This document shows, piece by piece, positions 26,701 through 59,289 of a stretch of 64,000 nucleotides of DNA. The stretch is from the NCBI RefSeq assembly GCF_963921235.1, contig NC_086097.1, positions 11,532,001-11,596,000 on the forward strand. The letters run 5' to 3'. The notes below the pieces were generated by a model, which saw nothing but the letters and a program-made list of their open reading frames with translations, was not told the DNA's origin and did not search any database. Source of the DNA: Mobula hypostoma (Eukaryota). Every line of letters starts with the position of its first letter. Position 1 is the stretch's first letter. The translations under genes and the position numbers were made by a program.

Positions 26701-26701
26701 T

Positions 26702-28440
26702 TAGAAACATAGAAACATAGAAAACCTACAGCACAATACAGGCCCTTCGACCCACAAAGCTGTGCCAAACATGTTCTTACCTTAGAACTACCTAGGCTTA
26801 CCCACAGCCGTCTATTTTTCTAAGCTCCATGTACCTATCCAGGAGTATCTTAAAAGACCACCACCGCTGCCAGCAGCCCATTCCACCAACTCACCACTCT
26901 CTGCGTAAAAATCTTACCCCTGACACCTCCTCTGTACCTACTTCCAAGCACCTTAAAACTAGCCATTTTAGCCCTGGGAAAAAGCCTCTGACTATCCACA
27001 TGATCAATGCCTCTCATTATCTTGTACACCTCTATCAGGTCACCTCTCATCCTCCGTCACTCCAAGGAGAAAAGGCCGAGTTCACTCAACCTATTCTCAT
27101 AAGGCATTCTTCTCAATCCAGGCAACATCCTTGAAAATCTCCTTTGCACCCTTTCTATGGTTTCCATGTCCTTCTTGTAGGGAGGCAACCAGAACTGAGC
27201 ACAGTACTCCAAGTGGGGTCTGACCAGGGTCCTATATAGCTGCAACATTACCTCTTGGCTCCTAAACTCAATCTCATGGTTAATGAAGGCCAATGCACTG
27301 TATGCCTTCATAACCACAGAGACAAACTGCGTAGCAGCTTTGAGTGTCCTATGGACTCAGACCCCAATATCTCTCTGATCATCCACACTCCCAAGAGTCT
27401 TATCATTAATGCCATCATATTAGACCTACCAAAATGAACCACCTCACACTTACCTGGGTTGAACTCCATCTGCCACTTCTCAGCCCAGTTTTGCATTCTA
27501 TCAATGTCCGGCTGTAACCTCTGACAGCCCTCCACAATCTCCACAACACTCCCAACCTTTGCATCATCAGCCAATTTACCAACCCATCCCTTCACTTCCC
27601 CATCCAGGTCATTTATAAAAATCACAAAGAGTAAAGGTCCCTGAGACACATCACTGGTCACCGACCTCCATGCAGAATATAGCCCATCTACAACCACTCT
27701 TTGCCTTCTATGGGCAAACCAGTTCTGGATCAACAAAGTAATGTTCCCTTGGATTCCATGCCTCCTTACTTTCTCAATAAGCTTTGCAATGGGTACCTTA
27801 TCAAATGTCTTGCTGAAATCCATATACACTACCTCTACAGTTCTACCTTCATCAACGTGTTTAGTCACATCCTCAAAAAATTCACTCAGGCTCATAAGGC
27901 ACAACCTGCCTTTGACAAAGCCATGCTGTCTATTCCTAATCATATTATACCTCTCCAAATGTTCATAAATCCTGCCTCTCAGGATCTTGTCCATCAATTT
28001 ACCAATCACTGTAGTAAGACTCACTGGTCTTTAATTTCCTGGGCTGTCTCTACTCCCTTTCTTGAATAAGGGAACCCTCTAATCCTCTGGACCCTCTCCT
28101 GTCCTCATTGATGATGCAAAGATTATTACCAGAGGCTCAGCAATCTCCTCCCTTGCTTCCCACAGCAGCCTGGGGTACATCCCATCCAGTCACGGTGACT
28201 TATCCAACTTGATGCTTTCCAGAAGCTCCAGCACATCCTCTTCCTTAATATCTATGTGCTCAAGCTTTTCAGTCTGCTGCAAGCCATTCCTACAATCTCT
28301 ACGATCCTTTTCTATAGTGAATACTGAAGTAAACTATTCATTAATTACCTCTGCTATCTCCTCCGGTTCCATACACAGTTTTCCACTGTCACACTTGATT
28401 AGTCCTATTCTCTCCTGTCTTATCCTCTTGCTCTTCACCT
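26702..28440 (-). mobile_element. CR1 RT plus 3' end (similar to 18292-19680)
   Basis: HGFVKGRLCL, YMDFSKTFDKVP, KLADD; (AGAAACAT)n tail at 26702-26722. Confidence 0.9.
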
Positions 28441-28755: not shown

Positions 28756-30830
28756 CTCTTTTTTGATATTAGACGTCATATCTTCACAAGACAAGATTTC
28801 ACAAGACAAAGGAGCAGAAGTAGGCCATTCGGCCCATCGAATCTGCTCCGCAGCTCCCCCATGAGCTAAACTATTCACCCATCTAGTTTCAATTTCTGGC
28901 TTTTTCCCCATATCCCTTGATATCCTGACTAATTAGATACCTGTCAATTTCCTCCTTAAACACCCTCAATGATCGGGCCTCCACAGCTGTATGTGGCAAC
29001 GAATTCCACAAATCCACGACCCTCTGGCTAAAAAAATTTCTCCTCATCTCTGTTTTAACTGGGTACCCTCTAATTCTAATACTATGGCCTCTTGCCCTGG
29101 ACTCACCCACCAAGGGAAACAGCCTTTGCACATCTACTCTGTCCAACCCTTTCAACATTCAAGATGACTCTATGAGATTTTCTCTCATTCTTCTATACTC
29201 TAATGAATACAATCCAAGAGCCGACAAACACTTCTCATATGTTAGCCCCTGCATTCCAGGAATCATCCTCGTAAATCTTCTCTGAACTCTCTCCAACATC
29301 AGTACATCCCTTCTAAGATAGGGGGCCCAAAACTGCACACAGTATTCCAAATGAGGTCTCACTAATGCCCCATAGAACCTCATCAACACCTCCTTACTCT
29401 TATACACTATTCCTCTTGAAATGAATGCCAACAAATGAATGCTTTCCTTACCGCCGATCCAACTTCGTGGGCAACCTTTAGGGTATCCTGTACGAGGACC
29501 CCCAAGTCCCTTTGCACTTCTGATTTTTGAATTTTCTCCCCATCTGAATAATAATCTGCCCGATTATTTCTTCTTCCAAAATGTACAACCGTACATTTGT
29601 CAACATTGTATCTCATCTGCCATTTCTTTGCCCACTCTCCTAAACTGACTAAGTCTCTCTGCAACCTCTCCGTTTCTTCAACATTTCCTGCTCCTCCACC
29701 TATCTTGATGTCATCTGCAAATTTTGCCACAAAACCATTTAATCCATAATCCAAATCATCGATATACATCGTAAAAAGAAGCAGCCCCAACACCGATCCC
29801 TGCGGAACACCACTAGTAACCGGCAACCAATCAGAATAGGATCCCTTTATTCCCACCCTTTGCTTTCTGCCTATCAGCCAATGCTCCACCCATTTCAATA
29901 CCTTTCCTATAATTCCATGGGCTCTCATCTTATTAAGCAGCCTCATATGCGGCACCTTATCAAAGGCCTTTTGAAAATCCAAATACACAACATCCACAGC
30001 CTCTCCCTTGTCAATCTTATTCGAGATTACCTCAAAAAATTCCAATAGGTTGGTGAGACAGGATCTTCCCTTCATGAAACCATGCTGGCTTCAGCCTATT
30101 TTGTCATGCACCTCGAGGTATTTCATAACCTCGTCCTTGAGGATTGACTCCAATATCTTTCCAACTGCCGATGTCAGACTAATAGGTCTGTAATTTTCTT
30201 TTTGCTGCCTCCTTCCTTTCTTAAATAACGGAACTACATTTGTGACCTTCCAGTCCTCCGGAACCATGCCAGAGTCTATTGATTCCTGGAAGATCATTTC
30301 TAATGCTTCCACAATCTCCAAAGCCACTTCCTTCAGAACCCTTGGGTGCACCTCATCTGGACTGGGAGACTTATCTATTCTTAGTTCACTTAGCTTCCCA
30401 AACACTTTCTCTCTAGATCTTCTTTGATCTTAGGTGACAGCTTCCTTTCATAATTCATCTTTTCTTTCATAATGACCTTCTTAGTTTCCTTCTGCAGGTC
30501 ATTAAAAGCTTCCCAGTCCTCTATCTTCCCACTAGCTTTGGCTTCCTTGTATGCCGTCTCTTTTGCTTTTACTTTGGCTCTGACTTCACTTGTCAGCCAC
30601 AGTGGTGTCCTGCTTCCATTTGAGAATTCCTCATTTGGAATATATCTGTCTTGCACTTCCCTCATTTTTCGCAGAAACTCCAGCCATTGCTGTTCTGCTG
30701 TCCTTCCTGTTAGAGTCCCTTTCCAGTCAACCTTGGCCAGTTCCCCTCTCATGCCACTGCAATTTCCATTTTTCCACTGAAATACTGACATATTGGAATT
30801 TAGTTTCTCCTCAAATTTCAGAGTGAACAT

Positions 30831-31249: not shown

Positions 31250-31723
31250 AACATATTGTGATCACTGTTCCCTCAGGGTTCCTTAACCTTAAGCTCTCTG
31301 ATCTCCTCCGGATTATTGCACAACACTCAATCCAGCACAGCTGACCCCCTCGTAGGCTCAACAACAAGCTGTTCTAAAAAGTCATTCCTTAGTCATTCTA
31401 CAATCCATTTGTAGAATGGATTGGGCCTGGTTTTCCCAATCCACTTTCATGTTAAAATCCCCAACGGTTATCATGATATTGCCTTTCTGACACGCCTTTT
31501 CTATCTCCTGCTGTAATTTGTAATCCACATCCCAGCTGCTGTTTGGAGGCCTGTATACAACTGCCATTCGGGTCTTTTTACGCTTGCCATTTCTTAACTC
31601 AATCCATAGAGACTCTACAATTTCTGATCCTATGTCATCCCTTTCTAATGATTTAATATTATTTCTTATACACAGGGCCACACCACCCCCTCTGCCTACG
31701 AACCTATCTTTCCGATACACCTT

Positions 31724-34720
31724 AAAAGTGGCAGGCCGACAAATCCAGGGCAAGCATTAAAAAGGGCCACTTTTCAACATAATTGTATAAGGGCTAAGAG
31801 AGTTGTAAAAGAGCGCCTGAAGGCTTTATGTGTCAATGCAAGGAGCATTCGTAATAAGGTGGATGAATTGAAAGTGCAGATTGTTATTAATGATTATGAT
31901 ATAGTTGGGATCACAGAGACATGGCTCCAGGGTGACCAGGGATGGGAGCTCAACGTTCAGGGATATTCAATATTCAGGAGGGATAGACATGAAGGAAGGG
32001 GAGGTGGGGTGGCGTTGCTGGTTAAAGAAGAGATTAACGCAATAGAAAGGAAGGACATAAGCCGGGAAGATGTGGAATCGATATGGGTAGAGCTGCGTAA
32101 CACTAAGGGGCAGAAGACGCTGGTGGGAGTTGTGTACAGGCCACCTAACAGTAGTAGTGAGGTCGGAGATGGTATTAAACAAGAAATTAGAAATGTGTGC
32201 AATAAAGGAACAGCAGTTATAATGGGTGACTTCAATCTACATGTAGACTGGGTGAACCAAATTGGTAAAGGTGCTGAGGAAGAGGATTTCTTGGAATGCA
32301 TGCGGGATGGTTTTTTGAACCAACATGTCGAGGAACCAACTAGAGAGCAGGCTATTCTGGACTGGGTTTTGAGCAATGAGGAAGGGTTAATTAGTGATCT
32401 TGTCGTGAGAGGCCCCTTGGGTAAGAGTGACCATAATATGGTGGAATTCTTCATTAATATGGAGAGTGACATAGTTAATTCAGAAACAAAGGTTCTGAAC
32501 TTAAAGAGGGGTAACTTTGAAGGTATGAGATGTGAATTAGCTAAGATAGACTGGCAAATGACACTTAAAGGATTGACAGTGGATATGCAATGGCAAGCAT
32601 TTAAAGGTTGCATGGATGAACTACAACAATTGTTCATCCCAGTTTGGCAAAAGAATAAATCAAGGAAGGTAGTGCACCCGTGGCTGACAAGAGAAATTAG
32701 GGATAGTATCAATTCCAAAGAAGTAGCATACAAATTAGCCAGAGAAAGTGGCTCACCTGAGGACTGGGAGAAATTCAGAGTTCAGCAGAGGAGGACAAAG
32801 GGCTTAATTAGGAAGGGGAAAAAAGATTATGAGAGAAAACTGGCAGGGAACATAAAAACGGACTGTAAAAGCTTTTATAGATATGTAAAAAGGAAAGACT
32901 GGTAAAGACAAATGTAGGTCCCCTGCAGACAGAAACAGGTGAATTGATTATGGGGAGCAAGGACGTGGCAGACCAATTGAATAATTACTTTGGTTCTGTC
33001 TTCACTAAGGAGGACATAAATAATCTTCCAGAAATAGTAAGGGACAGAGGGTCCAGTGAGATGGAGGAGCTGAGTGAAATACATGTTAGTAGGGAAGTGG
33101 TGTTAGGTAAATTGAAGGGATTGAAGGCAGATAAATCCCCAGGGCCAGATGGTCTGCATCCTAGAGTGCTTAAGGAAGTAGCCCAAGAAATAGTGGATGC
33201 ATTAATGATAATTTTTCAAAACTCGTAAGATTCTGGACTAGTACCTGAGGATTGGAGGGTGGCTAATGTAACCCCACTTTTTAAAAAAGGAGGGAGAGAG
33301 AAACCGGGGAATTATAGACCGGTTAGCCTAATGTCGGTGGTGGGGAAACTGCTGGAGTCAGTTATCAAGGATGTGATAACAGCACATTTGGAAAGCGGTG
33401 AAATGATCGGACAAAGTCAGCATGGATTTGTGAAAGGAAAATCATGTCTGACGAATCTCATAGAATTTTTTGAGGATGTAACTAGTAGAGTGGATAGGGG
33501 AGAACCAGTGGATGTGGTATATTTGGATTTTCAAAAGGCTTTTGACAAGGTCCCACACAGGAGATTAGTGTGCAAACTTAAAGCACACGGTATTGGGGGT
33601 AAGGTATTGGTGTGGGTGGAGAATTGGTTAGCAGACAGGAAGCAAAGAGTGGGAATAAACGGGACCTTTTCAGAATGGCAGGCGGTGACTAGTGGGGTAC
33701 CGCAAGGCTCAGTGCTGGGACCCCAGTTGTTTACAATATATATTAATGACTTGGATGAGGGAATTAAATGCAGCATCTCCCAGTTTGCGGATGACACGAA
33801 GCTGGGTGGCAGTGTTAGCAGTGAGGAGGATGCTAAGAGGATGCAGGGTGACTTGGATAGGTTGGGTGAGTGGGCAAACTCATGGCAGATGCAATTTAAT
33901 GTGGATAAATGTGAAGTTATCCACTTTGGTGGCAAAAATAGGAAAACAGATTATTATCTGAATGGTGGCCGATTAGGAAAAGGGGAGGTGCAACGAGACC
34001 TGGGTGTTATTATACACCAGTCATTCAAAGTAGGCATGCAGGTACAGCAGGTGGTGAAAAAGGCGAATGGTATGCTGGCATTTATAGCAAGAGGATTCGA
34101 GTACAGGAGCAGGGAGGTACTACTGCAGTTGTACAAGGCCTTGGTGAGACCACACCTGGAGTATTGTGTGCAGTTTTGGTCCCCTAATCTGAGGAAAGAC
34201 ATCTTTGCCATAGAGGGAGTACAAAGAAGGTTCACCAGATTGATTCCTGGGATGGCAGGACTTTCATATGAAGAAAGACTGGATGAACTGGGCTTGTACT
34301 CGTTGGAATTTAGAAGATTGAGGGGGGATCTGATTGAAACGTATAAGATCCTAAAGGGATTGGACAGGCTAGATGCAGGAAGACTGTTCCCGATGTTGGG
34401 GAAGTCCAGAACGAGGGGTCACAGTTTGAGGATAGAGGGGAAGCCTTTTAGGACCGAGATTAGGAAAAACTTCTTCACACAGAGAGTGGTGAATCTGTGG
34501 AATTCTCTGCCACAGGAAACTGTTGAGGCCAGTTCATTGGCTATGTTTAAGAGGGAGTTAGATATGGCCCTTGTGGCTACAGGGGTCAGGGGGTATGGAG
34601 GGAAGGCTGGGGCGGGGTTCTGAGTTGGATGATCAGCCATGATCATAATAAATGGTGGTGCAGGCTCGAAGGGCCGAATGGCCTACTTCTGCACCTATTT
34701 TCTATGTTTCTATGTTTCTA
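31724..34720 (+). mobile_element. Young CR1 with near-intact ORF2 (APE endonuclease plus RT)
   Basis: CVNARSIRNK, GITETWL, GDFN, SDHN, QGSVLGP, QFADD. One frameshift (~32890) and one in-frame TAA (33226-33228); 3' UTR hairpin and (TTCTATGT)n tail. Confidence 0.97.
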
Positions 34721-35062
34721 TCCTTGGTCATTCAACTCCCAATGGCAGCCATCCTTTAGCCAAGTTTCAGAGATGGCCACAACATCATACTTGCCAATCT
34801 GTAGCTGAATTTCAAGATGATCCGTTTTATTTCTTATGCTACGTACATTCAAATACAACACTCTCAGTCCAGTATTTATTGCTTTCTGTTTTAACTGCCC
34901 CATGCCTATATTGCCCTGTAACTCATCCCAATGGCTATGATTATGCCTCATCTCCTGCCTGTCCTTTCTATCATCTCTGTTGCACGCTATCTTTGATTTA
35001 TTTCTGTTTTCCCCTTCCTCAGCCCTATCACTCGAGTTCCCATCACCCTGCCAAATTAGTTC

Positions 35063-36330
35063 AAAGAGTAAAAGGGAGGAGAGATTTAACATGGGACCAC
35101 CGGAAAATGATGCTAGTGGGGTAGTAATGGGGACAAAGAAATGGTAGATGAACTTAATGAGTACTTTGCATCACTCTTCACTGTGGAAGACACTAGCAGT
35201 GGGTCGAAGGACTGTGAGTGTCAGGGAGCGTGAGTGAGTGCCATTGTTATTACAAAGGAAAAAGTGCTAGCCAAACTCAAAAGTCTTAAGGTGGATAAGT
35301 CACCTAGACCAGATGGACTACATCCCAGAGTCCCAGAGAGAGGTTGCTGAAGAGATAATGGATGCATTGGTCATGATCTTTCAAGAATCACTTGATTCTT
35401 GCATGGTCCCGAAGGACTGGGAGATTGTGAATGTCACTCTACTCTTTCAGAAGGGGGGAAGGAAATTATAGGCCAGTTAGCCTAACCTCAGTGGTTGGGA
35501 AAGTTGTTGGAGTCTATTATTAAGGATGAGGTTTCATAGTACTTGGAGACTAATGATAAAATAGGTCAAAGTTAGCGTAGTTTCTGTGAAGGGAAATCTT
35601 GCCTGAAAAATCTGTTCGAATTCTTCAAGGAAGAAACCAGTAGGGTGGACAAAGGAGATGTAGTAGATGTCATTTACTTAGATTTCCAGAAAGCATTTAA
35701 TAAGGTGCCACACATGAGGTTGCTTAACAAGATAAAATCCTATGCCATTACAGGAACGATATTGGCATGGATAGAGGAATGGCTGACAGGCAGGAGGCAG
35801 TGAGTGGGAGTAAAGGGAACCTTTTATGGTTGGCTGCCTGTGACTAGTGGTGTTCCTTAGGGCTTAGTATTGTGATCGTTACTTTTCGCATTATTTGTTA
35901 ATGATTTGGATAACGGAACTTATGGTTTTGTGGCAAAGTTTGCGGATAATATGAAGATAGTTGGAAGGGTTGGTAGTGCTGAGGAAGCAATGCTATTGCA
36001 GCAGGACTTAGAAAAATTGGAAGAATGGGGAAAAAGTTGGCAGATGGAATACAGTGTTGGGAAATGGACGATAAAGCATTTTGGTAAAAGGAACAATTGT
36101 GCAGAGTAAAATGTGGCGGGGGGGGGGGAGGGTTCAAATACCAGAGGTACAGAAGGATTTGGGAGTTCTTGTGCAGGTCTCCCAGAAGGCTGATTTGCAG
36201 GTTATGTCTGTGGTGAAGAAGGCAGATGTATGGGATTGAATGGGATTGGAGATCAGCTGTGATGGAGTGGTGGAGTGGACTCGATGGATTGAATGGCCTA
36301 ATTCCGCTCCTATGTCTTATGGTCTCGTGA
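35063..36330 (+). mobile_element. Degraded CR1 RT plus 3' end
   Basis: DKSPRPDGLHPRV, YLDFQKAFNKVPH, KFADN; CR1 3' UTR at 36250-36325. Confidence 0.85.
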
Positions 36331-47310: not shown

Positions 47311-48977
47311 CTACAAGGGAAAAAAGCATTGATCTTAAGCATGTGCTGTCGTTTTTTCTGAAAGCTCGATAAATTGATATTAATAAAAAGATAAAATAAT
47401 TTTTACCTCCTTTGAGGATGTATATCCAACTAATTCTATTAACTATTCCCATGAGGCAAAAATTCTAACCTCTTCTATCCTGAAGTTGACCATTATTTGA
47501 AATGAGTAAGTAATCAAAAGAATTGACTCTACAAGTCATTCAATTCACTGAAACTTCTCGACAGGAAGACGTGTCACCTCCAGGTTCTTTGGTACCTTTA
47601 GGTTCTTTTGTATGAGGTATACTAAGCTAGTGCATTATCTGCAGGTTATTAAAACAAAATTCTTAGCCTGATAAAGTTGGATCATGAACATGACCAATTT
47701 AGCATTTAATGCAGATGAGAATTATGGTATCTGAAAAGGATTAGGCTATAAAGATGCCAACTAGGCCCTTGGTGCTAATATGTTTCATTAGGTAATATAG
47801 ACCCTGCTTTAAACTAATATATACCGTAATTGGAAATAATATAGTTCTCTTCCATTACATTTTCTCTTTCTGGTCTCAACTACAAAAGCTCCTGAAATGC
47901 CAACTGTCAAAATATTTTCATTGGTACATCATGAGAATATGGCTGTCAGTTAAACCCTAACATTTTGTCTAATACGATTTCAAAGTTTAATGTTGTAACA
48001 TTCATTATTTCCCTCATTCCATGCAAAGTCTTCAAGGAGTTATTCATATACAGTACTTAAAGACCTAGGCATGTGCTGAGTTCCTTATGCAGGTTGACTG
48101 CTGGTGAATGGCCAGGGTGAAGTACTAATCAAATGTAGGAGGGCTAAACTCACCATTCCATATATTATTTTACATGAAGCATTTTATTTTGTAAAAGTAC
48201 TGTTTCTAGCCAATCAATTCTACAAAAGACATTTTCTCCAATAATCTGATTTCAAAAGTTTTCTCAACCAATAGTGAAACACACTAAATGCAACAGGTAT
48301 CATTAATGAAAAGCTCAGATGCCACAAGTCACCTTAGCTACTGTATCTTAGCCACCTTAGTCTACATTCACAGTTAATGTGCACAAGAATGGATAAAGCC
48401 ATCAGGAAACTTGCCTAATCAATGCTCATTACTAGTGAATATCTAAATGGACTGGACAGGAAAATCTAAATTTCAAGTTCAAGTTCAAATTTATTGTCAT
48501 TCAGCCGAATACATGTATATCGCCAAATGAAACAATGTCCTCTGGATGAAGGTGAACAGCACACTACGTAGAACTCGCACACAACACATTCTGACAACAT
48601 TTAAAATGTGAACAGTATAATGCTACTGGCACCTCATGCATGGTGAGACCTGGATGGTGGCAGGGGATCCAGTCTGAGAGAAGAAGCTGTTCCCCATCCC
48701 AAGAGTCCTTGTCCTAATGCTAACGTACCTCCTGCCTAATGGTAGGTGCTACATTTTGTAATTGCAAAACATCAAAACTAATTGAAATAAAAACATGGAG
48801 CCAGGAATAATGTGTCTAACTTTATTTTTACATTTAGCGAGGTATGTCCGTATGATTCGGTGGCATGAGGATGTGTGCCATTCATGTACTTTTACATATA
48901 ACCCACAATGAGTTATTTAAATGAACAAATAAGGCTTAATATATTTATAATATTATTCAAACACATATTACTGAAAT

Positions 48978-49530
48978 TTTTTGTGTTCGTCCATCGTTGA
49001 CGTCGATGAGGACCTCGACACCATTATGATGGTGTTGGGACTAGCGCGTCATTTGGATTTAAGTGAGGGAGAGTTGTGCAGTGTCAGCCTCACTCTCTCT
49101 TCCCAATTCCCATCTGGATCCAGTGGCAAGACAGAGTCGAGACGGCTGCAGAGGGGACTAGGCGCAGTGGATGACCAGGACATCTGCTGTGTCTTGTCCT
49201 GCTGTACACGTTCCACGACGCTGGCAGAGACTGCCTTCTTGACTGTTGGACCTTCCATTGGTCTCGGCCGCTCAATCCGCTGGAGTCTGTCTTCACATGC
49301 TGGGATAGACAACTCCGTATCTCACCAGTCGGCTACCCTCACCTGGTTTTTTCGGCTTGTCGAAGCTGTTGCCCGGGGTGTGGCCGCCGTCACATGCAAA
49401 CGGCTACGGGGAGCCACAGGTGAGAGCTGAGTGCCAGGTGGGGACCAAAGGTGGGTCTAACCGCCTTGAAAAGGATACAACATGCTCCCCCACCAGAGGT
49501 GCTACCCCTCCCTGACACCCCATACACCCC
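48978..49530 (-). mobile_element. Non-autonomous non-LTR retroposon (~550 bp), possibly derived from an RTE- or Ingi/Vingi-type LINE
   Basis: TSD CTGAAAT (48971-48977, 49530-49536), short A-tail, GC/CpG-rich structured body, no RT coding; inserted in the Gypsy 3' LTR. Confidence 0.75.
49335..49530 (-). ncRNA. HDV-like self-cleaving ribozyme fold at the element 5' end
   Basis: P1 GGGGUGU/ACACCCC; P2 GCUCUCACCUG/CAGGUGAGGGU; P3 GGC/GCC; L3 UCCCCGU; P1.1 CC/GG; GGGCAACA junction; P4 GCUU-CGAC-AAGC; J4/2 CGAAAAAA. Folded by eye. Confidence 0.7.
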
Positions 49531-49805
49531 TGAAATATTAAACACTCAGAATTCTTCCCTGCTTAGCTATAAACTCCAACTTCATATAGAATGCATCACA
49601 ACTTATATATAATACATATATATAATACAACTACTAGATAGACATCCATAGCATAGTAAATTTTAAATTGACCTTTTAAGGCCTAAAGTTTTAATCACTG
49701 TGTAGGATTTCTTACACTTGTGGGATAACGTCTTTCCAGATAAAAGAGGATCACTCTGCTTGGCAGGTGACTCTTGTGACTTTGAAACAATCTCGGGCTC
49801 TGGGA

Positions 49806-50882: not shown

Positions 50883-52288
50883 ATCAGAATCAGGTTTCAT
50901 ATCACCAACATATATCGTGAAGTTTGTTAACTCATTGGCACCAGTTCAAGGTAATACATAATAAATATCGAAAAAAGGTAAATCAATTACAATAAGCATA
51001 TATATGTATACTAAATAGTTAAATTTAAAATAATGCAAAAACAGAAATAATAAAAAAGTGAGGTAGTGTTCATGGGTTCAATGTCATTTACGAGTCAAAT
51101 GGGATAGGGAAGAAGCTGTTTCAGATTTGCTGAGTGTGTGCCTTTAGGCTTCTGTACCTCTTTCGTGCTGTTAACAATGAGAAGAGGGCGTGTCCTGGGT
51201 GATGGGAGTCTTTAATAATGGACGCCACCTTTCTGAGGCACCACTCCTTGAAGATGTCTTGGATACTATGGAGGCTAGTACCCAAGATGGAAAAATGTCT
51301 AAGTTTACAACTTTCTGAGGCTTCTTTGGATCCTGTGCAGTAGCGTCCCTCTCCCATGCAGCCTGTCAGAATGCTTTCCAAATGTTTTAGGTGACAAACC
51401 AAATCTCCTCAACTCCTAATGAAATATTGCTGCTGTCATACCTTCTTTAAAGCTGCATCAGTAAGTTGGGACCAGGTTAGATCCTCAGAGATCTTGTCAC
51501 TCAGGAACTTGAAACTGCCTCACTCTCCACTTCTGATCCTTCTTTGAGGATTGGTTTGTGTTCCCTTGTCCTATACTTTCCTAAGTCCACAATCTGCTCT
51601 TTGGTCTTGCTCACATTGAATACAAAGTTGTGGCTGCGTCACACTCAACTAACTGTATAGGTATATCTCGCTTCTATACACCCTCTCATCTCTATCTCAG
51701 ATTCTGCCAACAATGTTTGCATCATCAGCTAATTTATAGATGGCACTTGAGCTATACCTGGCCACACTGTCTTGGGTATAGACAGAGTAGAGCAGTGGGC
51801 TAAGCACACATCCCTGAGGTGCACCAGCTTTGATTGTTAGCGAGAAGGAGGTATTTTTACCCATCTGAGCAGATTGTGGTCTTCCAGTTAGGAAGTTAAG
51901 GATCCAATTGCAGAAGAGGTACAGAGGCCCAGGTTCTGGACTGTAGGAATGATGGTGTTAAACGCCGAACTATAGCCAATGAACAGCATCCTGACATAAG
52001 TGTTTGTGTTGCCCAGGTGACCTAAGCCCATGTGAAGGGCTATTGAGATTGTGTCTGCCGTAGACCTATTGAAGCGATAAGCCAATTTCAGTGGGTCCAG
52101 GTTCTTGCTGAGGCAGGAGTTGATTCTAGCCATGACCAACCTGTCAAAGCATTTCAACAATGTAGACATGAGCGCTATTTGATGATAGTCACTGAGGCAG
52201 CTCACACTGCCCTTATTGGGCACTGGTATAGTTTTTGGCCTTTTGAAGCAGGTGGGAACTTCGGACTGTAGCAGTGTGAGGTTGAACA
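50883..52288 (-). mobile_element. Rex1/Babar LINE (RT plus 3' UTR) inserted in Gypsy pol
   Basis: [50 protein letters not shown]. Confidence 0.88.
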
Positions 52289-52820
52289 GTGTTGTGATTT
52301 TGGAGATTTTCCTTGTCATCTTTACTGGTAACGATGATGCCATCCAGGTAACACTGAGTGCCTGGCAACTTAGCAGCACCTGGTCCAGGGGCTTCTGCCA
52401 GAGTGCAGGTTCAGATGCCTCTCCAAAAAATAAGCCTATTACTGTATAGTGATAAAGCCCTTTATGAGCGTTTATGGTGAGAAATACCTCAAACTCTTCT
52501 TCCATCTCCATCTGTAGGTAGGCCTCAGCTAAGTCTACTTTACTTAAGTGTTTCCCTCCAGAAACATTCTCAAAGATATCCTGTATCCTCAGCAGAGGGT
52601 ATTGATTGAGCTTTAGTGCTGAGTTGATGGTGACTTTAAAATCACCACAGATCCTGACAGGCCCATTTTTCTTGGCTACTAGGACCACTGGCTTTGCTAA
52701 TGAAAGAATTCCTTCAGCCTCCATGAAATATAGCTCACTGGCTACTTTATCACGGATGGTATAGGAACTAGATGGGCTTTGCTAAACTTGGGTGTGGCAT
52801 TTTCATTTAACACTATTATA

Positions 52821-55800
52821 CAGGTCAGGTCAGGTCAGGGCCTTGCACCACGTAGCCCAGTACTACCTGTCTTGGGTCGGGTTGTCAGCGACTCAGCCGG
52901 CACACCCCCTGGTGCACTTTGGTTAACCAGAGAGGAGGGTGTGTAGGCACCCAGTAGGACTAAAAACAAAACCTGTCAAAGGGCAGATGAACTCTTTGTG
53001 AGTCAACGGCCACCTACTGTCTGTGTGAGGAGTGGCGCACCACACAGTCTTCCATTTCGCGCCTTGTAAGGCATTATGATGACAGACAACCCAACAAACC
53101 CTATACTTCCAGACCCGGGAGTGCTCAGGAACTCCACAGAACGCCCAGACCCTGGCCGAGACAGGCAGTATGAAGATGCAACCACAAATCCTACGGAGAG
53201 GGTTAAGTCCGACAAGGGGGCTGAGCGAACTGCGCCTCTTTTGCATTGTAAGGTAAAAACGATCATATCAACCTTCAACATAAACACCATCTGCCTCTTG
53301 CCTCGAAGCACAGAGTTGGCATCACAGGCAAGCAGATATGAGATCTCTATCCTGGGGATCCAAGAACACTGTCATGTACACCCTGACGAAGAAATAAGGT
53401 TCACAGAGGTAGAGGGGATGCACCTCATCACCTCATCCGCATGGAGAGAGCTGATGACGATGTCAGCACAAGGTGGAGCAGGGCTGATGGTGAACAGCAA
53501 GGCGAAGGAGGCACTGAGGGGCGTCGTCTCAGTCTGTGACAGAATCCTTACTACAGAATTCGACGGAAACCCGGCGACCTCTGTCATCACCTGTTACTCC
53601 CCGCACAACCGCAGCGAGGAGAAGGAGGTGGAGGCCTTCTACAGTAAACTTCACGAAGCTGTCACTTCAATACCGGCACATAACTTCCTGGCTGTGCTCA
53701 GCGCTTTTAATGCCCAGGTCAGACTGGAAGATGTTCCATACTCATACCAAGACTTTACCAACAGAAGTGGACAATATCTAGTTGATTTCATCCAGGAACA
53801 CAGTCTCATTGCCGCCAACACACAATTCAAGAAGCGAGCTGGTAAACTGTGAACGTACGAACACAGAGCCTCCATCTACAGGAAACAGGTCGATTACATC
53901 CTCGTTAAGAACAAAATGGCGTAATTGTGTGATCAACACAGAAGCCTACAGCACCTTCAACTCGGTCAGTTCTGATCACAGAGTAGTGTCAATGCAAGTG
54001 AGACTGAGCCTGCGGCAACCCAAAGCCACAGGTCCCAAGGAGAAGATAGACTGGAAGGCATTCTCCTCACAACTTGTTCTTCAAGCCCAGTACACAGTGG
54101 GGGTGAGAAATTGCTTCAGCCCACCGGAAAGGGGGGGAGGAAGAGACTGCCACTGACCACTATCAATGGCTCATAGACGCACACACAGATGCAACAAAGA
54201 GTTTCCCTACTGTGAAGCGAATCAAGAAGAGTCAGATCTCAAAACATCCTGATGTCGTCGCAGCAAGAAGTGTGGTCCATGCTTGTCATGCTGAACTTAG
54301 AAGGAGTGAAACAGAGGAGCTAAGAGATAAGTTCAAGACAGCAAAGAAGAATCTCTTTGCCACCTACGACTGACTGAAGGAAGAGGAACTAGCTGAGAGG
54401 ATTAGAGAGACAGAAGCTGCTAATGAAGACATGCAGCATGGAGAAGCATGGTGCCTAGTCAATGAGATCAGTAGACGGAAGAAGTCCCCATTAGATCAAA
54501 TAAGTGGTAAAACAGCAGAAGACCGCGTCCTGACATGGTTTACCCACTTTAAGAACCTGCGGGGAAGCCCTCCAATGATCACGGAAGAAGAAGACATACG
54601 CACGATACTAACGCAAGTCGACATCGATGACAGCCCATTCACTATTGAGGAACTGAAGAAGGCCAACTATGTGCTCAAACAGGGCAGGAGCACTGGACCA
54701 GATCGGATACCACCAGATGTCCTGAAGAACTGCGACCTGGATGACATCTTGCTGGACATATGTAATACGGCATTGCGTAAAAAGCCGACAAACCAGAACA
54801 GTGGTCACTCTCAAACATTATCCCAGTCCCCAAGTCTGGATCCCTCACAAAGACAGATAACTACTGCGGTATCAGCTTGACCTGCATTTTAGCAAAATTA
54901 TACAATCGGATGATCTTGAACAGGATTCGCACCGCCATTGACCCTAAGCTAAGATTAAATCAGAATTGTTTTCGGCAGAAGCGCACAACAGTAATGCAAA
55001 TACTTGCTCTCCGTAGGATCATTGAGGAAGTCAAGAAGAACAACCTACCAGCCATGCTTACTTACATCGATTTTCGCAAAGCTTTTGACTCCATTCATCG
55101 AGGTAAAATGCTGAAGATCCTGAAAGCTTACGGAGTGCCAGGCCATCTACTGAGGGCAATAGAGCCCAGCTATACCAAGACAATGGCGAAAGTTGTATCA
55201 CCAGACAGAGAAGCAGCAGTGTTCGAGCTCCTAGCTGGTGTGCTGCAAGGAGACACTCTGGCACCCTACATCTTTATAATCGTCCTTGATTACGCTCTGC
55301 GTCAAGCTACCAAAGATCATGACAAGCTTGGTTTTACTATAAAACCAGGGCGAACCAAAAGGGTCAGACCAGTTACGCTCACAGATCTCGATTTTGCAGA
55401 TGACAAAGTCCTGCTCTCTGACCAGATGGAGGAAGCACAGCAGCTACTGACAAAAGTGGAAAAGTGCAATAAAGTTGAACTTCACCCAAACGCTAAAAAG
55501 ACAATGGTGTTTAGCTGGGACAAAGGTACTCTCAAGACCATAGAGAATGATACCATTAAGAAAGTCTTTGACTATAAGTACCTTGGGTCAAGAATGATGA
55601 GTTCAGGGAAGGACATAAAGGTACGGAAGGCGCTGGCGTGAAGGGCTATGAACGACATGAAGGAAATCTGGAAGTCAAACCTGACCAGAGGGCTTAAAAG
55701 GAGGATTTTCATAGCAGTCACAGAGTCCATTCTCACATACGGATGCGAGACGTGGACACTCACCAAGACGATGCGAAAGTCTCTAGATGGTTGCTATACA

Positions 55801-56155
55801 CGAATGCTCCAGATGGCTCTTGATGTGAGTTGGCAACAGCACATGACGAACGTTGAGCTCTATAACAACCTACCGATGCTCTCCACTAAAATCGAGGCGA
55901 GAAGACTGCAATTAGCGGGGCACTGTCTACGCCACCCCGAGCTACCTGCCAGCCTAGTCATCATATGGGAGCCCAAGAATGGTAGGATGAACCCTGGGTG
56001 CCCTCCCAAGACTATGGTCTACACGCTCCTAGAAGACAGCGGTGTGGCTAATGTAGATGAACTGAACACACTGATGAGGGAAAAGGAGAAGTGGAGGGTC
56101 TGTCATCGTGCCCGACGCCGGCCCCCGGGCCTGAGTCGACATAGTGGTAGTAGTA
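52821..56155 (+). mobile_element. Near full-length RTE-superfamily LINE (single EN-RT ORF, disrupted)
   Basis: 5' UTR; EN ISTFNINT, LGIQEH, CYSPHN, FNAQV, SDHR; RT FRQKRTT, DFRKAFDSI, GVLQGDTLAP, DFADD, YLGS; (AGT)n tail. Gypsy sequence resumes at 56156. Confidence 0.92.
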
Positions 56156-56209
56156 CCCTTGATAATTTTGAGTTTTCCACTGCCATCTTTGAATGCTGCT
56201 GTGTCACGT

Positions 56210-57351
56210 TAGAAACATAGAAACATAGAAAACAGGTGCAGGAGTAGGCCATTCGGCCCTTCGAGCCTGCACCACCATTTATTATGATCATAGAAACATA
56301 GAAACATAGAAAATAGGTGCAGGAGTAGGCCATTCGGCCCTTCGAGCCTGCACCGCCATTTATTATGATCATAGAAACATAGAAAATAGGTGCAGGAGTA
56401 GGCCATTTGGCCCTTCAAGCCTGCACCGCCATTTATTATGATCATGGCTGATCATCCAACTCAGAACCCCGCCCCAGCCTTCCCTCCATACCCCCTGATC
56501 CCCGTAGCCACAAGGGCCATATCTAACTCTCTCTTAAATATAGCCAATGAACTGGCCTCAACTGTTTCCTGTGGCAGAGAATTCCACGGATTCACCACTC
56601 TCTGTGTGAAGAAGTTTTTCCGAATCTCGGTCCTAAAAGGCTTCCCCTTTATCCTCAAACTGTGACCCCTTGTTCTGGACTTCCCCAACATCGGGAACAA
56701 TCTTCCTGCATCTAGCCCGTCCAATCCTTTTAGGATTTTATACGTTTCAATCAGATCCCCCCTCAATCTTCTAAATTCCAACGAGTACAAGCCCAGTTCA
56801 TCCAGTCTTTCTTCATATGAAAGTCCTGCCATCCCAGGAATCAATCTGGTGAACCTTCTTTGCACTCCCTCTATGGCAAGAATGTCTTTCCTTAGATTAG
56901 GGGACCAAAACTGCACACAATACTCCAGGTGTGGCCTCACCAAGGCCTTGTACAACTGCAGTAGTACCTCCCTGCTCCTGTACTCGAATCCTCTCGCTAT
57001 AAATGCCAGCATACCATTCGCCTTTTTCACCACCTGCTGTACCTGCATGCCCACTTTCAATGACTGGTGTATAATGACACCCAGGTCTCGTTGCACCTCC
57101 CCTTTTCCTAATCGGCCACCATTCAGATAATAATCTGTTTTCCTATTTTTGCCACCAAAGTGGATAACTTCACATTTATCCACATTAATTTGCATCTGCC
57201 ATGAATTTGCCCACTCACCCAACCTATCCAAGTCACTCTGCATCCTCTTAGCATCCTCCTTACAGCTAACACTGCCACCCAGCTTCGTGTCATCCGCAAA
57301 CTTGGAGATGCTGCATTTAATTCCCTCATCCAAGTCATTAATATATATTGT
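56210..57351 (-). mobile_element. Young 5'-truncated CR1 with triplicated 3' terminus
   Basis: 290-aa open frame nearly identical to the C-terminal part of ORF 33259-34623; three copies of the terminal ~75-80 nt at 56210-56444. Confidence 0.95.
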
Positions 57352-59289
57352 TGACTCTTTTGCTGGGGATGTGACATGCTAATGGTGGATAGATCTGCAG
57401 TGAAATTGTACTTGACTCAGCCAATCCAGGCCCCTCCATGCTGGCCCTCCTGTATTTACCACAAATAAACCCAATATGGTTTGTCAGTTATTCTATTTCA
57501 CTGTTAAATATGTCATTCTCACAGGAGTTACCTTTTCCCCCATGTAAGTTTTCGGTTGGACATCTGCAAACTTCAGTTCAGTATCTTTGAAATGCTATTC
57601 AAACTCATTTTGTGAAATGTCTGAAACAGCCGAGCCAGTGTCCAACTCCATTTTAATTAATATGCCGTTTACTTCCATATTGCTTGACTATTGTTAGTTT
57701 TCACACGTAAATCTTAAAGCTTCACAGTTCTGTGTCATTCTCATCCTTATCAGATTTTTCATCAAGAGCATGCAGATTAGTGTTCATTTGACTTTTTAGC
57801 TGTTTCTCGGGGGGGGGGCAAAGAGATTGTTGGATGGATGGGAGAAGTCACTGATGATGTTAAGGGCCCTCTGTATGCAGCGTTTCTGATAATATCTGAT
57901 CTGAAAGTACTTTCCTGGAATATAACTTAAAGTATAAACCTTCCTATACCAACTTGAATGCTGGATGTTTTAAATTTTATGTTATGGCAGAACATTTCCA
58001 AGTCAAACTACATTTTGAATAACAAAAAAAGTGGCAATGTTGTTAACTGCATTTTTCGCGTGAAGCTGCTATTTTATCGCAGTACTGAAGATCTTGAGGA
58101 GCTGTTGGATTGATTCTTTTGTTGCTTATAATATGTGCATTTCAGAGAGAACTAAATACAGATGGAGATGGAAGTAAAAGGATGGATGAGCTATGGATTG
58201 ATGCTTTCAGACCCCAGGGGAACTCAGTGATATTCGTCTGAAACAGCAGATAAGAAACACAAGCATGTGTCATCTGTAAAGCACAAGAACAGCGAGTTTA
58301 ACCTTTTAAAAATAGCAGAACCATTCCTCCAAAAAATATATACAATATTTGGTTTATTCAGGACATACGTTGTGAAAGTGGAAATATACTGCAACCGTGT
58401 AGATTTTCAAAATTCAACAATAGCAAGATTAAAGATATCCAATTAGTAGCAGTAATAATAGAAAACATGAATATTTCGAAAGCTGCAAAAGAAATTAACT
58501 ACATCAAGGATTAATGGATTTGATGAACAGATTGCTGGCCTATATATGATGTGCAGAAAGTGATCCGTCAAGGTCAGTATGCACAGGGTATTTCAGACAT
58601 TAGTTTACATTAAATGAATCAGCTGTTGGTTCTTAAAGTGATTTTTTTTGTGCATGTGTGATCACCGAAGTAAAGGACATTGATACCGTGAGATTGATTT
58701 TTTTTTTACACACATTTCATCCAGTCATAGCATTGTGCACACATTTAGATCAGGGATGACTTTCAGTTATCAGCAATATCAAATTTGCTCTTAGAAGTGT
58801 CCAACTATTCCATGCTCATCAGTGTGGATCCATTCTTACTCAGAACAGATTTATACACTCAGTGTCCACTTTATTAGGTACACCTTTATACCTGCTTGTT
58901 AATTCAAAAACAATACTGCTTTACATTCAGCATTGAAATCCAGCTAATCAGGAAGTAAGAGCAGTACTACCATCTGCTATCAATATCCTGATGCTTTTTT
59001 ATAATTTAAAGAATAACATCTGATTTTTTTTTTTGTAAAGTGATTTAGGTGAATTTCTGAGCCTACCCATGTAAGATCCTGAAGGAGTCATTATAACTAA
59101 ATCAGTAAAAAAAAAATCAAAGGATTACAGTCATGTTTGTCAATTAACAAGAAGAATACTTTGGTGGCTGACATAATATCAAAATCATTTTTCTGATATT
59201 TTTAAATGCTTTATAAGTCAAGCTCTAGAAATATCAGTTAATTAAATTTCATTAATGTGAATGACCTATAGAGATCAGTAGCCCCTCCA

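What the first reader, a model, noticed from the sequence alone, without database searches (positions are those of the whole stretch)
49335..49530. HDV-like ribozyme fold, with an extra hairpin in L3, at the exact 5' end of a short retroposon
Seen (minus strand): P1 GGGGUGU (49530-49524) pairs with ACACCCC (49381-49375). J1/2 is a long stem-loop closed by GGGUGUCAGG/CCUGGCACUC. P2 is 11 bp (49427-49417 with 49345-49335). P3 is GGC (49415-49413)/GCC (49384-49382). L3 begins UCCCCGU, matching HDV U20-C21-C22-x-C24-G25. P1' is followed by GGGCAACA as in genomic HDV, and P4 is GCUU-CGAC-AAGC. The predicted cleavage site coincides with the TSD-defined element boundary. Known: HDV-like ribozymes process the 5' ends of R2, RTE and L1Tc/ingi non-LTR elements. 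Unusual: a GCCGU/ACGGC hairpin (49404-49386) sits at the position equivalent to HDV U27, and its GCC is a competing P3' partner, so it could act as a conformational switch (inference). J4/2 reads CGAAAAAA, so either C49354 is the catalytic C or this copy has lost it.
Basis: partly seen in the sequence, partly recalled or inferred. Interest (0 to 1): 0.85.

Follow-up and report, generated by a model that had tools for sequence, protein, structure and literature searches.

The report
Self-cutting ribozyme heading a short retroposon
A 547-base jumping-gene copy begins with an RNA fold of the hepatitis-delta self-cutting type that would trim the element's own 5' end; this copy has lost the catalytic base, but thousands of sister copies keep it, along with an unusual extra hairpin in the core loop.

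Summary
The stretch is the 5' end of a 547-nt non-LTR retroposon (49530-48984) with a 6-nt target-site duplication and a short A/C-rich tail.

The genome (3.48 Gb) holds 3,719 matches to the family's core and 636 to a diverged sister family; reversed controls gave 0. Copies picked by their 3' ends start within 4 nt of G1 in 20 of 29 and 21 of 30 cases.

The two families differ at 143 of 349 aligned downstream positions. They differ at 0 of 54 columns of P1, P2, P3, P1.1 and J4/2. P4 carries a compensatory G-C to C-G change.

The likely catalytic C (in GGCUAAA) is present in 72 of 74 and 13 of 13 sister copies, but is A in the window copy (GAAAAAA), so this copy is probably dead.

The L3 hairpin is real and conserved in both families. 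The proposed "switch" is not supported. Rfam does not recognise the fold. Cleavage and expression are untested, and no partner LINE was found.

Verdict: a new structural variant of a known kind of ribozyme.

The parts
48984..49530 (-). Whole retroposon copy (547 nt), family F1. It lacks 15 nt that sister copies have just after the ribozyme, between 49328 and 49327.
   Evidence: blastn of the region against 29 sister loci: alignments run from GGGGTGT to ...GATGGACGAACA; alignment.
49531..49536 (-). 5' target-site duplication, ATTTCA
   Evidence: Read; the same hexamer follows the tail.
48972..48977 (-). 3' target-site duplication, ATTTCA, after the short tail CAAAAA (48983-48978)
   Evidence: Exact TSDs of 6-13 nt were found in 35 of 63 full-length sister copies.
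49524..49530 (-). P1 5' strand, GGGGUGU; the predicted cleavage site is immediately 5' of G49530
49429..49520 (-). J1/2: a 92-nt stem-loop closed by a 10-bp stem (49520-49511 with 49438-49429)
   Evidence: Family F2 has one extra C-G pair inserted in this stem.
49417..49427 (-). P2 5' strand
   Evidence: 97.7% of cells paired in 88 copies.
49413..49415 (-). P3 5' strand, GGC
49385..49412 (-). L3, 28 nt: UCCCCGU A, then a hairpin (49404-49386, 5 bp plus a 9-nt loop), then G. U49412, C49411, C49410 and G49407 stand at the places of HDV U20, C21, C22 and G25.
   Evidence: The hairpin is conserved in F1 and F2.
49382..49384 (-). P3 3' strand, GCC
49375..49381 (-). P1 3' strand, ACACCCC
49373..49374 (-). 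GG of P1.1 (pairs with C49411/C49410), followed by J1.1/4 GCAAC (49372-49368)
49354..49367 (-). P4 hairpin: 4 bp in this copy (A49367.C49354 mismatch), 5 bp in most sister copies
   Evidence: outer pair GC 55, CG 11 of 88.
49346..49353 (-). J4/2, GAAAAAAC. Position 49351 is A where the family has the likely catalytic C (family: GGCUAAAC).
   Evidence: C in 72 of 74 F1 and 13 of 13 F2 copies.
49335..49345 (-). P2 3' strand
48984..48995 (-). Conserved 3' terminus GATGGACGAACA. In sister copies it is followed by (ACA)n or (ACCA)n tails of varying length.

Best explanation
The stretch is the 5' module of a non-autonomous non-LTR retroposon family, and it encodes an HDV-like self-cleaving ribozyme.

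Inferred mechanism, following the published model for R2, RTE, baggins and L1Tc:
1. A copy is transcribed as part of a longer host or read-through transcript.
2. The RNA folds into the nested double pseudoknot (P1-P2-P3-P1.1-P4).
3. The C of GGCUAAA in J4/2 acts as general acid, with a metal ion held by the L3 U/G pair.
4. The chain is cut immediately 5' of G1.
5. The element RNA is released with its exact 5' end, and every full-length daughter copy again carries the complete ribozyme.
6. The 3' end (stem-loop plus GATGGACGAACA and an (ACA)n tail) is then used by the reverse transcriptase of an unidentified LINE for target-primed reverse transcription.

Shown here: the fold, its place at nucleotide 1, the sharp clustering of copy 5' ends, and its selective conservation between two diverged families.

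Inferred: cleavage itself, co-transcription, and the partner.

The window copy has lost the catalytic C and is most likely an inactive relic.
For: 1. All helices and core nucleotides are present in HDV order at nucleotide 1 of the element. P3' abuts P1', and GG follows P1' directly.

2. The family is large. The F1 core pattern has 3,719 matches and the F2 pattern 636, each within 3 mismatches, with 0 for the reversed controls.

3. Among copies picked by their 3' part, 20 of 29 start at positions 1-4 and 6 more at 7-16. Among copies picked by their last 65 nt, 21 of 30 start at or before position 4. In another organism's contigs, the unlike flanks begin at the same two edges (table 7, run X9).

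4. F1 and F2 majority states differ at 0 of 54 columns of P1, P2, P3, P1.1 and J4/2. They differ at 16 of 71 columns in the J1/2 interior and at 143 of 349 downstream (Fisher 6e-5 and 7e-12).

5. What does vary is what the HDV fold tolerates:
- L3 positions 4-5 (CC, AA, CU, UC).
- The J1.1/4 letters.
- The P4 outer pair, G-C to C-G (55 against 11 of 88 copies).
- U-A to U.G changes in P4.
- One inserted C-G pair in the J1/2 stem.

6. U, CC and G of L3, the GG, and the C of GGCUAAA are kept in at least 69 of 74 F1 and at least 12 of 13 F2 copies.

7. The only Rfam family reaching E <= 10 on the 3' half of an intact copy is an HDV ribozyme: RF02682, 10.8 bits, E 5.6, aligned over GGCAACGG...CCGGCUAA.

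8. Published precedent (passages read):
- R4, Dong, baggins and L1Tc ribozymes cut at the element's 5' end, and J1/2 loops reach 498 nt (PMC3774820).
- LINEs and non-autonomous SINEs use HDV-like ribozymes (PMC6765202).
- The R2 core is CCUCCUCGUGG (PMC5035012); here the core reads GGC UCCCCGU ... GCC.
Against: - No Rfam family reaches its gathering score. The full ribozyme gives no HDV hit at E <= 10. The one partial hit is far below its threshold (10.8 against 44 bits).
- There is no compensatory change in P1, P2 or P3. They are invariant, so their pairing rests on conservation and on analogy.
- The first P1 pair is G-C. The HDV cleavage site has a G.U wobble that contacts the catalytic metal ion (title of Chen et al. 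2009, seen in the reference list of PMC13635239).
- L3 is 28 nt rather than the 7-8 nt I recall for described members. Whether the core tolerates this is untested.
- J4/2 has 5 nt after the C, against 3 in HDV as I recall it.
- The F2 copies were picked with a pattern that covers P1.1 to J4/2, so their conservation in that stretch is partly by selection.
- The variant list is truncated (25 rows not shown).
- Neither cleavage nor transcription was shown. All sequencing runs were contigs.
- The window copy lacks the catalytic C.
Confidence: 0.72

Rival explanations
1. The fold is a relic. The family inherited an HDV-like 5' module from a LINE ancestor, but the L3 insertion, the G-C closing pair and the longer J4/2 have made it catalytically dead. 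The precise 5' end comes from an internal promoter that starts transcription at G1. The conservation would then reflect promoter function or protein binding. In L1Tc/NARTc the same first 77 nt are both promoter and ribozyme.
For: - There are three departures from the canonical core.
- Rfam is silent.
- There is no covariation in P1, P2 or P3.
- Precedent for a dual promoter/ribozyme 5' end: PMC3383444 (abstract only).
- The R2 protein binds a pseudoknot within its ribozyme (PMC6765202, passage).
Against: The pattern of what is kept matches ribozyme needs position by position. U, CC and G of L3, the GG, the C of J4/2, and both strands of every helix are kept. L3 positions 4-5 and the J1.1/4 letters drift, and P4 changes compensate. 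A promoter would not need both strands of three helices spaced 90-150 nt apart to stay complementary.
Confidence: 0.15
2. The conserved 5' region is a structured RNA with another role, such as a binding site for the partner's reverse transcriptase, a stability element or an export element. Its likeness to HDV ribozymes would be coincidental.
For: - The long J1/2 stem-loop and the L3 hairpin are conserved, yet no described HDV-like ribozyme needs them.
- The nested fold energy is not unusual.
Against: My strict descriptor hits the window once, against at least one hit in 11 of 500 shuffles, and that single hit falls exactly on nucleotide 1 of the element. The 3' half shares GGCAACGG...CCGGCUAA with an Rfam HDV model. 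P3'/P1'/GG are contiguous, as in HDV.
Confidence: 0.08
3. It is a chance match: a reader hunting for helices in a G+C-rich repeat found an HDV-like arrangement with no biological meaning.
For: - A loose descriptor gives about 1.3 hits per shuffled window.
- Minimum-free-energy z-score is -0.21.
Against: - 0 of 54 helix and core columns differ between families that are about 40% diverged.
- 93.9% of cells pair, against 33-47% when partners are slid.
- The strict descriptor is rare in shuffles.
- Copy 5' ends sit at the predicted cut.
Confidence: 0.03

Closest known systems
[quoted passage not shown]
   Same: Both have the nested double-pseudoknot order, a 7-bp P1 starting at element nucleotide 1, and a variable, sometimes very long J1/2. 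The role is release of the element RNA from a co-transcript. Basis: PMC3774820 passages; PMC6765202 passages.
   Different: L3 here carries a 21-nt insertion (A, hairpin, G) after the canonical seven letters. The first P1 pair is G-C. The carrier is a 547-560-nt non-coding element, not a LINE. No reverse-transcriptase-encoding partner with this ribozyme was found.
Non-autonomous elements that keep their LINE's HDV-like ribozyme: R2 SIDEs of Drosophila, and NARTc/SIDER of trypanosomatids
   Same: These are short, non-coding derivatives with the ribozyme at the 5' end and an RT-recognition sequence at the 3' end. Basis: PMC3414825 and PMC3383444 abstracts; PMC8190864 abstract.
   Different: SIDEs sit in rDNA and NARTc in trypanosomes. 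This family is dispersed, with several thousand copies in a 3.5-Gb animal genome, and sequencing runs under five other organism labels also hold it. It has TSDs of 6-13 nt and tri- or tetranucleotide tails.
R2 ribozyme core (CCUCCUCGUGG) and the HDV ribozymes
   Same: L3 begins UCCCCGU, against UCCUCGU in R2 (PMC5035012 passage). A variant reading UCCUCGU makes up about 30% of depth in one organism (place 1404 C>T in X9). GGCUAA in J4/2 and GGGCAAC after P1' resemble antigenomic and genomic HDV; that resemblance is from recall only.
   Different: There is no rDNA target and no upstream-shifted cleavage site. The L3 hairpin is extra. J4/2 is two letters longer (by recall of HDV).
RTE-clade LINEs (candidate partner, by inference only)
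   Same: RTE insertions are not site-specific, have TSDs of 6-12 bp, and have short 3' UTRs that often end in di- or trinucleotide repeats (PMC2887409 passage). RTEs carry HDV-like ribozymes and lack their own promoters (PMC6765202 passage).
   Different: No RTE sequence was linked to this element in any call. The LINE fragments in the window share no similarity with its head or tail.

Membership tests
HDV-like self-cleaving ribozymes | Nested double pseudoknot in the order P1 - J1/2 - P2 - P3 - L3 - P3' - P1' - P1.1 - P4 - J4/2 - P2' | tested here: met
   All helices are present in this order. 93.9% of 3,776 cells pair in 88 copies, against 33-47% with slid partners. The structure was derived from these sequences, so the slid control is lenient.
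HDV-like self-cleaving ribozymes | P1 of about 7 bp starting with G at the cleavage site, with P3' contiguous to P1' | tested here: met
   GGGGUGU/ACACCCC is 7 bp and GCC abuts ACACCCC. Element copies begin at this G.
HDV-like self-cleaving ribozymes | G.U wobble as the first pair of P1 (as in HDV; its necessity for the wider family is from recall) | tested here: not met
   The pair is G-C in 56 of 88 copies and G.U in 7. Most of the rest are 5'-truncated copies or decayed CpG sites.
HDV-like self-cleaving ribozymes | L3 with U, CC (for P1.1) and G (reverse wobble with U) at positions 1, 2-3 and 6 | tested here: met
   U is kept in 74/74 F1 and 13/13 F2 copies. C is kept in 72/74 and 12/13; the second C in 74/74 and 13/13; G in 69/74 and 13/13. 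G25 binds the metal ion and G25A impairs cleavage (PMC13635239 passage).
HDV-like self-cleaving ribozymes | Short L3 (7-8 nt in described members, by recall; the R2 core CCUCCUCGUGG implies 7) | tested here: not met
   L3 is 28 nt, with a conserved 5-bp hairpin inserted after the seventh letter.
HDV-like self-cleaving ribozymes | P1.1: two G directly after P1' pairing with the CC of L3 | tested here: met
   Pairs are C-G in 85 and 82 of 88 copies (helix 5).
HDV-like self-cleaving ribozymes | Catalytic cytosine in J4/2 | tested here: inconclusive
   The family meets it: C of GGCUAAA in 72/74 F1 and 13/13 F2 copies (the F2 copies were picked with a pattern containing it). The window copy does not: A at 49351.
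HDV-like self-cleaving ribozymes | Match to a curated covariance model (Rfam HDV families) at gathering score | tested here: not met
   There were 0 hits at gathering score and none at E <= 10 on the full region. On the 3' half, RF02682 scores 10.8 bits against a gathering score of 44. The 92-nt J1/2 and the 21-nt L3 insertion probably explain the miss (inference).
HDV-like self-cleaving ribozymes | Divalent-metal-dependent self-cleavage giving 5'-OH and 2',3'-cyclic phosphate ends | not testable with these tools
   This needs a bench assay.
Non-autonomous non-LTR retroposon (SINE-like / internally deleted LINE derivative) | Dispersed copies with variable target-site duplications, 5' truncations, a 3' tail and no coding capacity | tested here: met
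   - Exact TSDs of 6-13 nt in 35 of 63 full-length copies; (ACA)n or (ACCA)n tails.
- 5' truncations and 5' inversions.
- The upstream DNA of truncated copies is unrelated.
- The 112-codon open frame shows no codon-position bias (48/46/40) and has no homologues.
Non-autonomous non-LTR retroposon (SINE-like / internally deleted LINE derivative) | An autonomous LINE that shares its 3' end (and possibly its 5' ribozyme) | tested here: inconclusive
   None was found among the 40 best of 1,170 candidates for the last 65 nt or in the window's own LINE fragments. The genome search scores only the best candidates, so a rarer or diverged LINE could not surface.

The most novel reading that the evidence does not exclude
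The conserved hairpin inserted in L3, at the place of the extruded U27 of HDV, may be a working part of the ribozyme rather than a passenger. It could be a protein-binding site, a folding element, or an RNA-RNA contact; its loop carries the 6-nt palindrome GCAUGC in the family majority. Any of these could gate self-cleavage or couple it to reverse transcription. If so, this would be a structurally distinct subclass of HDV-like ribozymes that current descriptors and Rfam models cannot see, and similar hidden ribozymes could head many other vertebrate retroposon families.
Probability: 0.25. Interest if true: 0.7.

Novelty: new variant of a known kind. Interest (0 to 1): 0.5.

Why it matters
HDV-like ribozymes at retrotransposon 5' ends are well established, so the principle is not new. 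Three points give this case value.

1. It shows such a ribozyme driving a family of several thousand dispersed, non-coding copies in a large animal genome. Sequencing runs under five other organism labels also hold the element.

2. The core carries a conserved 21-nt hairpin inside L3 and a G-C pair at the cleavage site. No model in Rfam detects it. It therefore tests how much the HDV active site tolerates, and it warns that descriptor-based censuses undercount these ribozymes.

3. The family offers a natural mutant series for bench work: 33 of 74 sampled copies keep every core feature, while others, like the window copy, have lost the catalytic C.

Tried and rejected
- **Rfam.** At gathering score on the whole window: nothing. 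At E <= 10 on 49200-49650 and on an intact copy: no HDV family, only chance-level HIV-1_SD and PVT1_3 matches.
- **Nested MFE folding.** z = -0.21, uninformative for a pseudoknot. Energy bookkeeping of partial structures was not comparable and is not used.
- **Partner LINE.**
  - A search with the last 65 nt gave only the short element and plain 5' truncations.
  - No partial matches turned up in 160 kb of window plus flanks.
  - The window's own RT/APE fragments share nothing with the element's head or tail.
  - The element's 112-codon frame found no longer protein (552 candidates, none at E <= 0.001).
- **Third ribozyme family.** One odd P4 variant seen proved to be a single copy.
- **Tandem arrays (retrozyme-like).** One pair of same-strand copies 576 nt apart is two separate copies with 67 nt between them, the first 3'-truncated.
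- **Expression and RNA 5' ends.** All 23 runs offered are kept as contigs, and the 'RNA?' label of X15 is a guess. Nothing can be said about transcription or cleavage in vivo.
- **Earlier notes of this scan.** None for this genome or sequence. A word search gave only phage and transposon cases.
- **Papers.** Webb & Luptak 2011 and Ruminski et al. 2011 are not held, so I could not read the family's defining descriptor. A search for 'HDV-like ribozyme' + 'L3 loop' + 'insertion' found one paper, seen as listing and abstract start only, on dimerisation in CPEB3 ribozyme crystal structures. 'HDV-like' + 'ribozyme' + 'shark' gave two papers: passages of one were read (PMC5035012), the other seen by listing only, and nothing seen in either bears on this element. 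I tried to recognise the host clade from LINE protein motifs, from memory only, and dropped it.

Full report
**Observation.**
- P1 is GGGGUGU (49530-49524) with ACACCCC (49381-49375).
- A 92-nt J1/2 stem-loop is closed by a 10-bp stem.
- P2 has 11 bp: 49427-49417 with 49345-49335.
- P3 is GGC/GCC.
- L3 starts UCCCCGU and then holds a 5-bp hairpin (49404-49386).
- GG follows directly after P1' and can form P1.1 with the CC of L3.
- P4 is GCUU-CGAC-AAGC, and J4/2 reads GAAAAAAC.
- P3' abuts P1', as in the HDV architecture.

**Chance.**
A descriptor of my own hits the 64-kb window only at this site. It requires a 7-bp P1 with at least 6 Watson-Crick pairs, a 3-bp P3, L3 = UCCNNG of 6-32 nt, GG after P1', and a P2 of at least 9 bp. 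The hit is at 49530, plus an alternative register at 49521 made possible by a second GGGGUGU at nt 10-16. The descriptor hit at least once in 11 of 500 block shuffles. A looser version is unspecific, with 1.26 hits per shuffle, and it misses this copy because it demands a C in J4/2. The nested MFE is unremarkable (z = -0.21), as expected for a pseudoknot.

**The element.**
The stretch is the head of a 547-nt retroposon copy, 49530-48984. It is flanked by ATTTCA at 49536-49531 and 48977-48972, and it ends in GATGGACGAACA plus a short tail. The genome is 3.48 Gb in 200 contigs.

Whole-genome pattern counts are:

| Pattern | Matches | Reversed control |
|---|---|---|
| 30-nt core of the main family (F1), up to 3 mismatches | 3,719 | 0 |
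| 30-nt core of a diverged sister family (F2), up to 3 mismatches | 636 | 0 |
| Exact composite pattern, P3' through P2' | 1,467 | 0 |

Exact target-site duplications of 6-13 nt were found in 35 of 63 full-length copies. The other 28 had none by my exact-match rule. Tails are (ACA)n, (ACCA)n or just AC.

Five-prime ends are sharply defined:
- Among copies chosen by their 3' part, 20 of 29 start at positions 1-4, 6 at 7-16, 2 are truncated at 79 and 212, and 1 has a 5' inversion.
- Among copies chosen by their last 65 nt, 21 of 30 start at or before position 4, 2 at 12-14, and 7 are truncated at 180 or beyond (four of these 30 repeat loci already fetched).
- In contigs of another organism, unlike flanks begin at the same two edges (table 7, X9).

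**The window copy is a dead copy.**
Where it reads GAAAAAAC, the family reads GGCUAAAC. The C is present in 72 of 74 F1 copies and in 13 of 13 F2 copies, and is A only here. From memory, this GGCUAA resembles the J4/2 of the antigenomic HDV ribozyme, and it is aligned to GGCUAA of Rfam's RF02682 consensus. The window copy also lacks 15 nt just after the ribozyme. Of 74 F1 copies, 33 keep all of the following: a 7-bp P1, at least 10 bp of P2, P3, P1.1, and the U, G and C core letters. Another 28 fail only in P1, mostly through loss of a few 5' nucleotides or CpG decay.

**Comparative evidence.**
I aligned 88 ribozyme regions: the window copy, 74 F1 and 13 F2. I then counted the pairs of the full pseudoknotted structure.
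- 93.9% of 3,776 cells pair, against 33-47% when partners are slid. This control is lenient because the structure was read from these sequences.
- Covariation is sparse. The P4 outer pair is G-C in 55 copies and C-G in 11, and one hairpin pair is U-A in 85 and C-G in 1 (the window copy; both sides are CpG sites, so this is weak).
- P1, P2 and P3 do not vary. That is silent on pairing but telling on constraint.
- The majority states of F1 and F2 differ at 0 of 54 columns of P1, P2, P3, P1.1 and J4/2. They differ at 16 of 71 columns of the J1/2 interior and at 143 of 349 aligned downstream positions (Fisher 6e-5 and 7e-12).
- Caveats: the F2 downstream majority rests on 6 copies, and the F2 copies were picked with a pattern spanning P1.1 to J4/2.
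- The differences that do occur are L3 positions 4-5 (CC to AA), three letters of J1.1/4, the compensatory P4 pair, U-A to U.G in P4, and an inserted C-G pair in the J1/2 stem.

In contigs of four runs under four organism labels, the variants listed at 10% or more in the core fall in a few places. They are L3 positions 4-5, the hairpin (C to U, keeping G.U), its loop CpG, the linker before P3', the third G after P1', and one P4 position (A to G, keeping U.G). None is listed in P1', P2, P3 or the catalytic C, but 25 rows were not shown.

**Databases.**
Rfam gives nothing at gathering score and no HDV family at E <= 10 on the whole ribozyme. On the 3' half of an intact copy, the only family at E <= 10 is the HDV ribozyme of F. 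prausnitzii: RF02682, 10.8 bits against a gathering score of 44, E 5.6. The alignment runs over GGCAACGG...CCGGCUAA. This is a lead, not a membership proof. I infer that the 92-nt J1/2 and the 21-nt L3 insertion are why the models fail.

**Mechanism.**
The best reading (about 0.72) is the published one for retrotransposon HDV-like ribozymes. A copy is transcribed within a longer RNA, the double pseudoknot forms, and the chain is cut 5' of G1. The released RNA then carries the complete ribozyme into every full-length daughter copy.

Passages I read in support:
- R4, Dong, baggins and L1Tc cut at the element's 5' end, and J1/2 loops reach 498 nt (PMC3774820).
- RTEs and baggins lack promoters and rely on co-transcription, and LINEs and non-autonomous SINEs use HDV-like ribozymes (PMC6765202).
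- The L3 G binds the metal ion and G25A impairs cleavage (PMC13635239).

Shown here: the fold, its position, 5'-end clustering and selective conservation. Not shown: cleavage, transcription and the partner.

**Departures from the canon.**
1. L3 is 28 nt. After UCCCCGU (R2 has UCCUCGU; PMC5035012) come A, a 5-bp hairpin with a 9-nt loop, and G. The hairpin is as conserved between F1 and F2 as the core, with 1 of 21 columns differing, at a loop CpG. It sits where, from memory, HDV's U27 is flipped out into solvent, so an insertion there is sterically plausible. That is inference.
2. The first P1 pair is G-C, not G.U.
3. J4/2 has two more letters after the C than HDV (recall).

That triplet is GCU in 85 of 88 copies, so I do not adopt it.

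**Partner.**
I found no LINE sharing the head or the tail. TSDs of 6-13 nt and trinucleotide tails fit what is written of RTE elements (PMC2887409). RTEs are known ribozyme carriers (PMC6765202). This remains a guess.

**Novelty and limits.**
The kind is known: a ribozyme-headed non-LTR element, including non-autonomous ones such as R2 SIDEs and NARTc (abstracts). The new parts are the conserved L3 hairpin, the G-C cleavage-site pair, and the scale and spread of the family. Runs under six organism labels hold the element, the one with the largest share probably being the window's own species. My searches for an L3 insertion in print were narrow: one search found one paper, seen as listing and abstract start only, on dimerisation in CPEB3 ribozyme crystals. 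The two key family papers were not held, so I cannot say the variant is unreported, only that I did not find it.

Noticed in passing
window 49515-49521 (minus strand; nt 10-16 of the element): A second GGGGUGU lies 9 nt after the first and can also pair with ACACCCC. This gives an alternative P1 register whose cut would fall 9 nt inside the element. Copy 5' ends do not pile up there.
   Followed up: partly
L033:1416-1421 (family majority); window 49393-49398: The 9-nt loop of the L3 hairpin contains the 6-nt palindrome GCAUGC in most F1 copies. The window copy has GCAUGU after CpG decay. A palindromic loop could support kissing-loop dimers; UGCAUG is also, from memory, the Rbfox-type motif. 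Chance is not excluded.
   Followed up: no
L033:1506-1841 (window about 49310-48986, minus strand): A 112-codon frame runs open to the very 3' end of the element with no stop. F1/F2 differences show no codon-position bias (48/46/40), indels are not in threes, and no homologue was found. It is probably not coding.
   Followed up: yes
L053:1971-2049 and L075/L076 (around 1185-1228 and 1838-1881): Three loci have an inverted 5' segment joined to a truncated copy, as in twin priming of LINE-1-type insertions. L075 and L076 look like one insertion in a duplicated segment.
   Followed up: no
window 18680-19468, 25782-28030, 29407-30090, 51888-52781, 56461-57378 (all -); 31652-35124 and 54374-56220 (+): The window is rich in LINE fragments. 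Open frames match RVT_1, and at 31652-32905 they match the AP-endonuclease families. None shares sequence with the element's head or tail.
   Followed up: partly
window about 8780 (minus strand): This is the single hit of my loose HDV descriptor. That descriptor gives 1.26 hits per shuffled window, so this is at chance level.
   Followed up: partly
L117 (G000:C1:21776150-21777500): Two F1 copies lie on the same strand, 67 nt apart, and the first is 3'-truncated at nt 523. This is not a tandem array.
   Followed up: yes
L065 and L069, upstream flanks; also L049: The flanks of three unrelated insertions share another repeat (72-80% identity over 112-141 nt). This is a different, unidentified interspersed repeat of this genome.
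   Followed up: no
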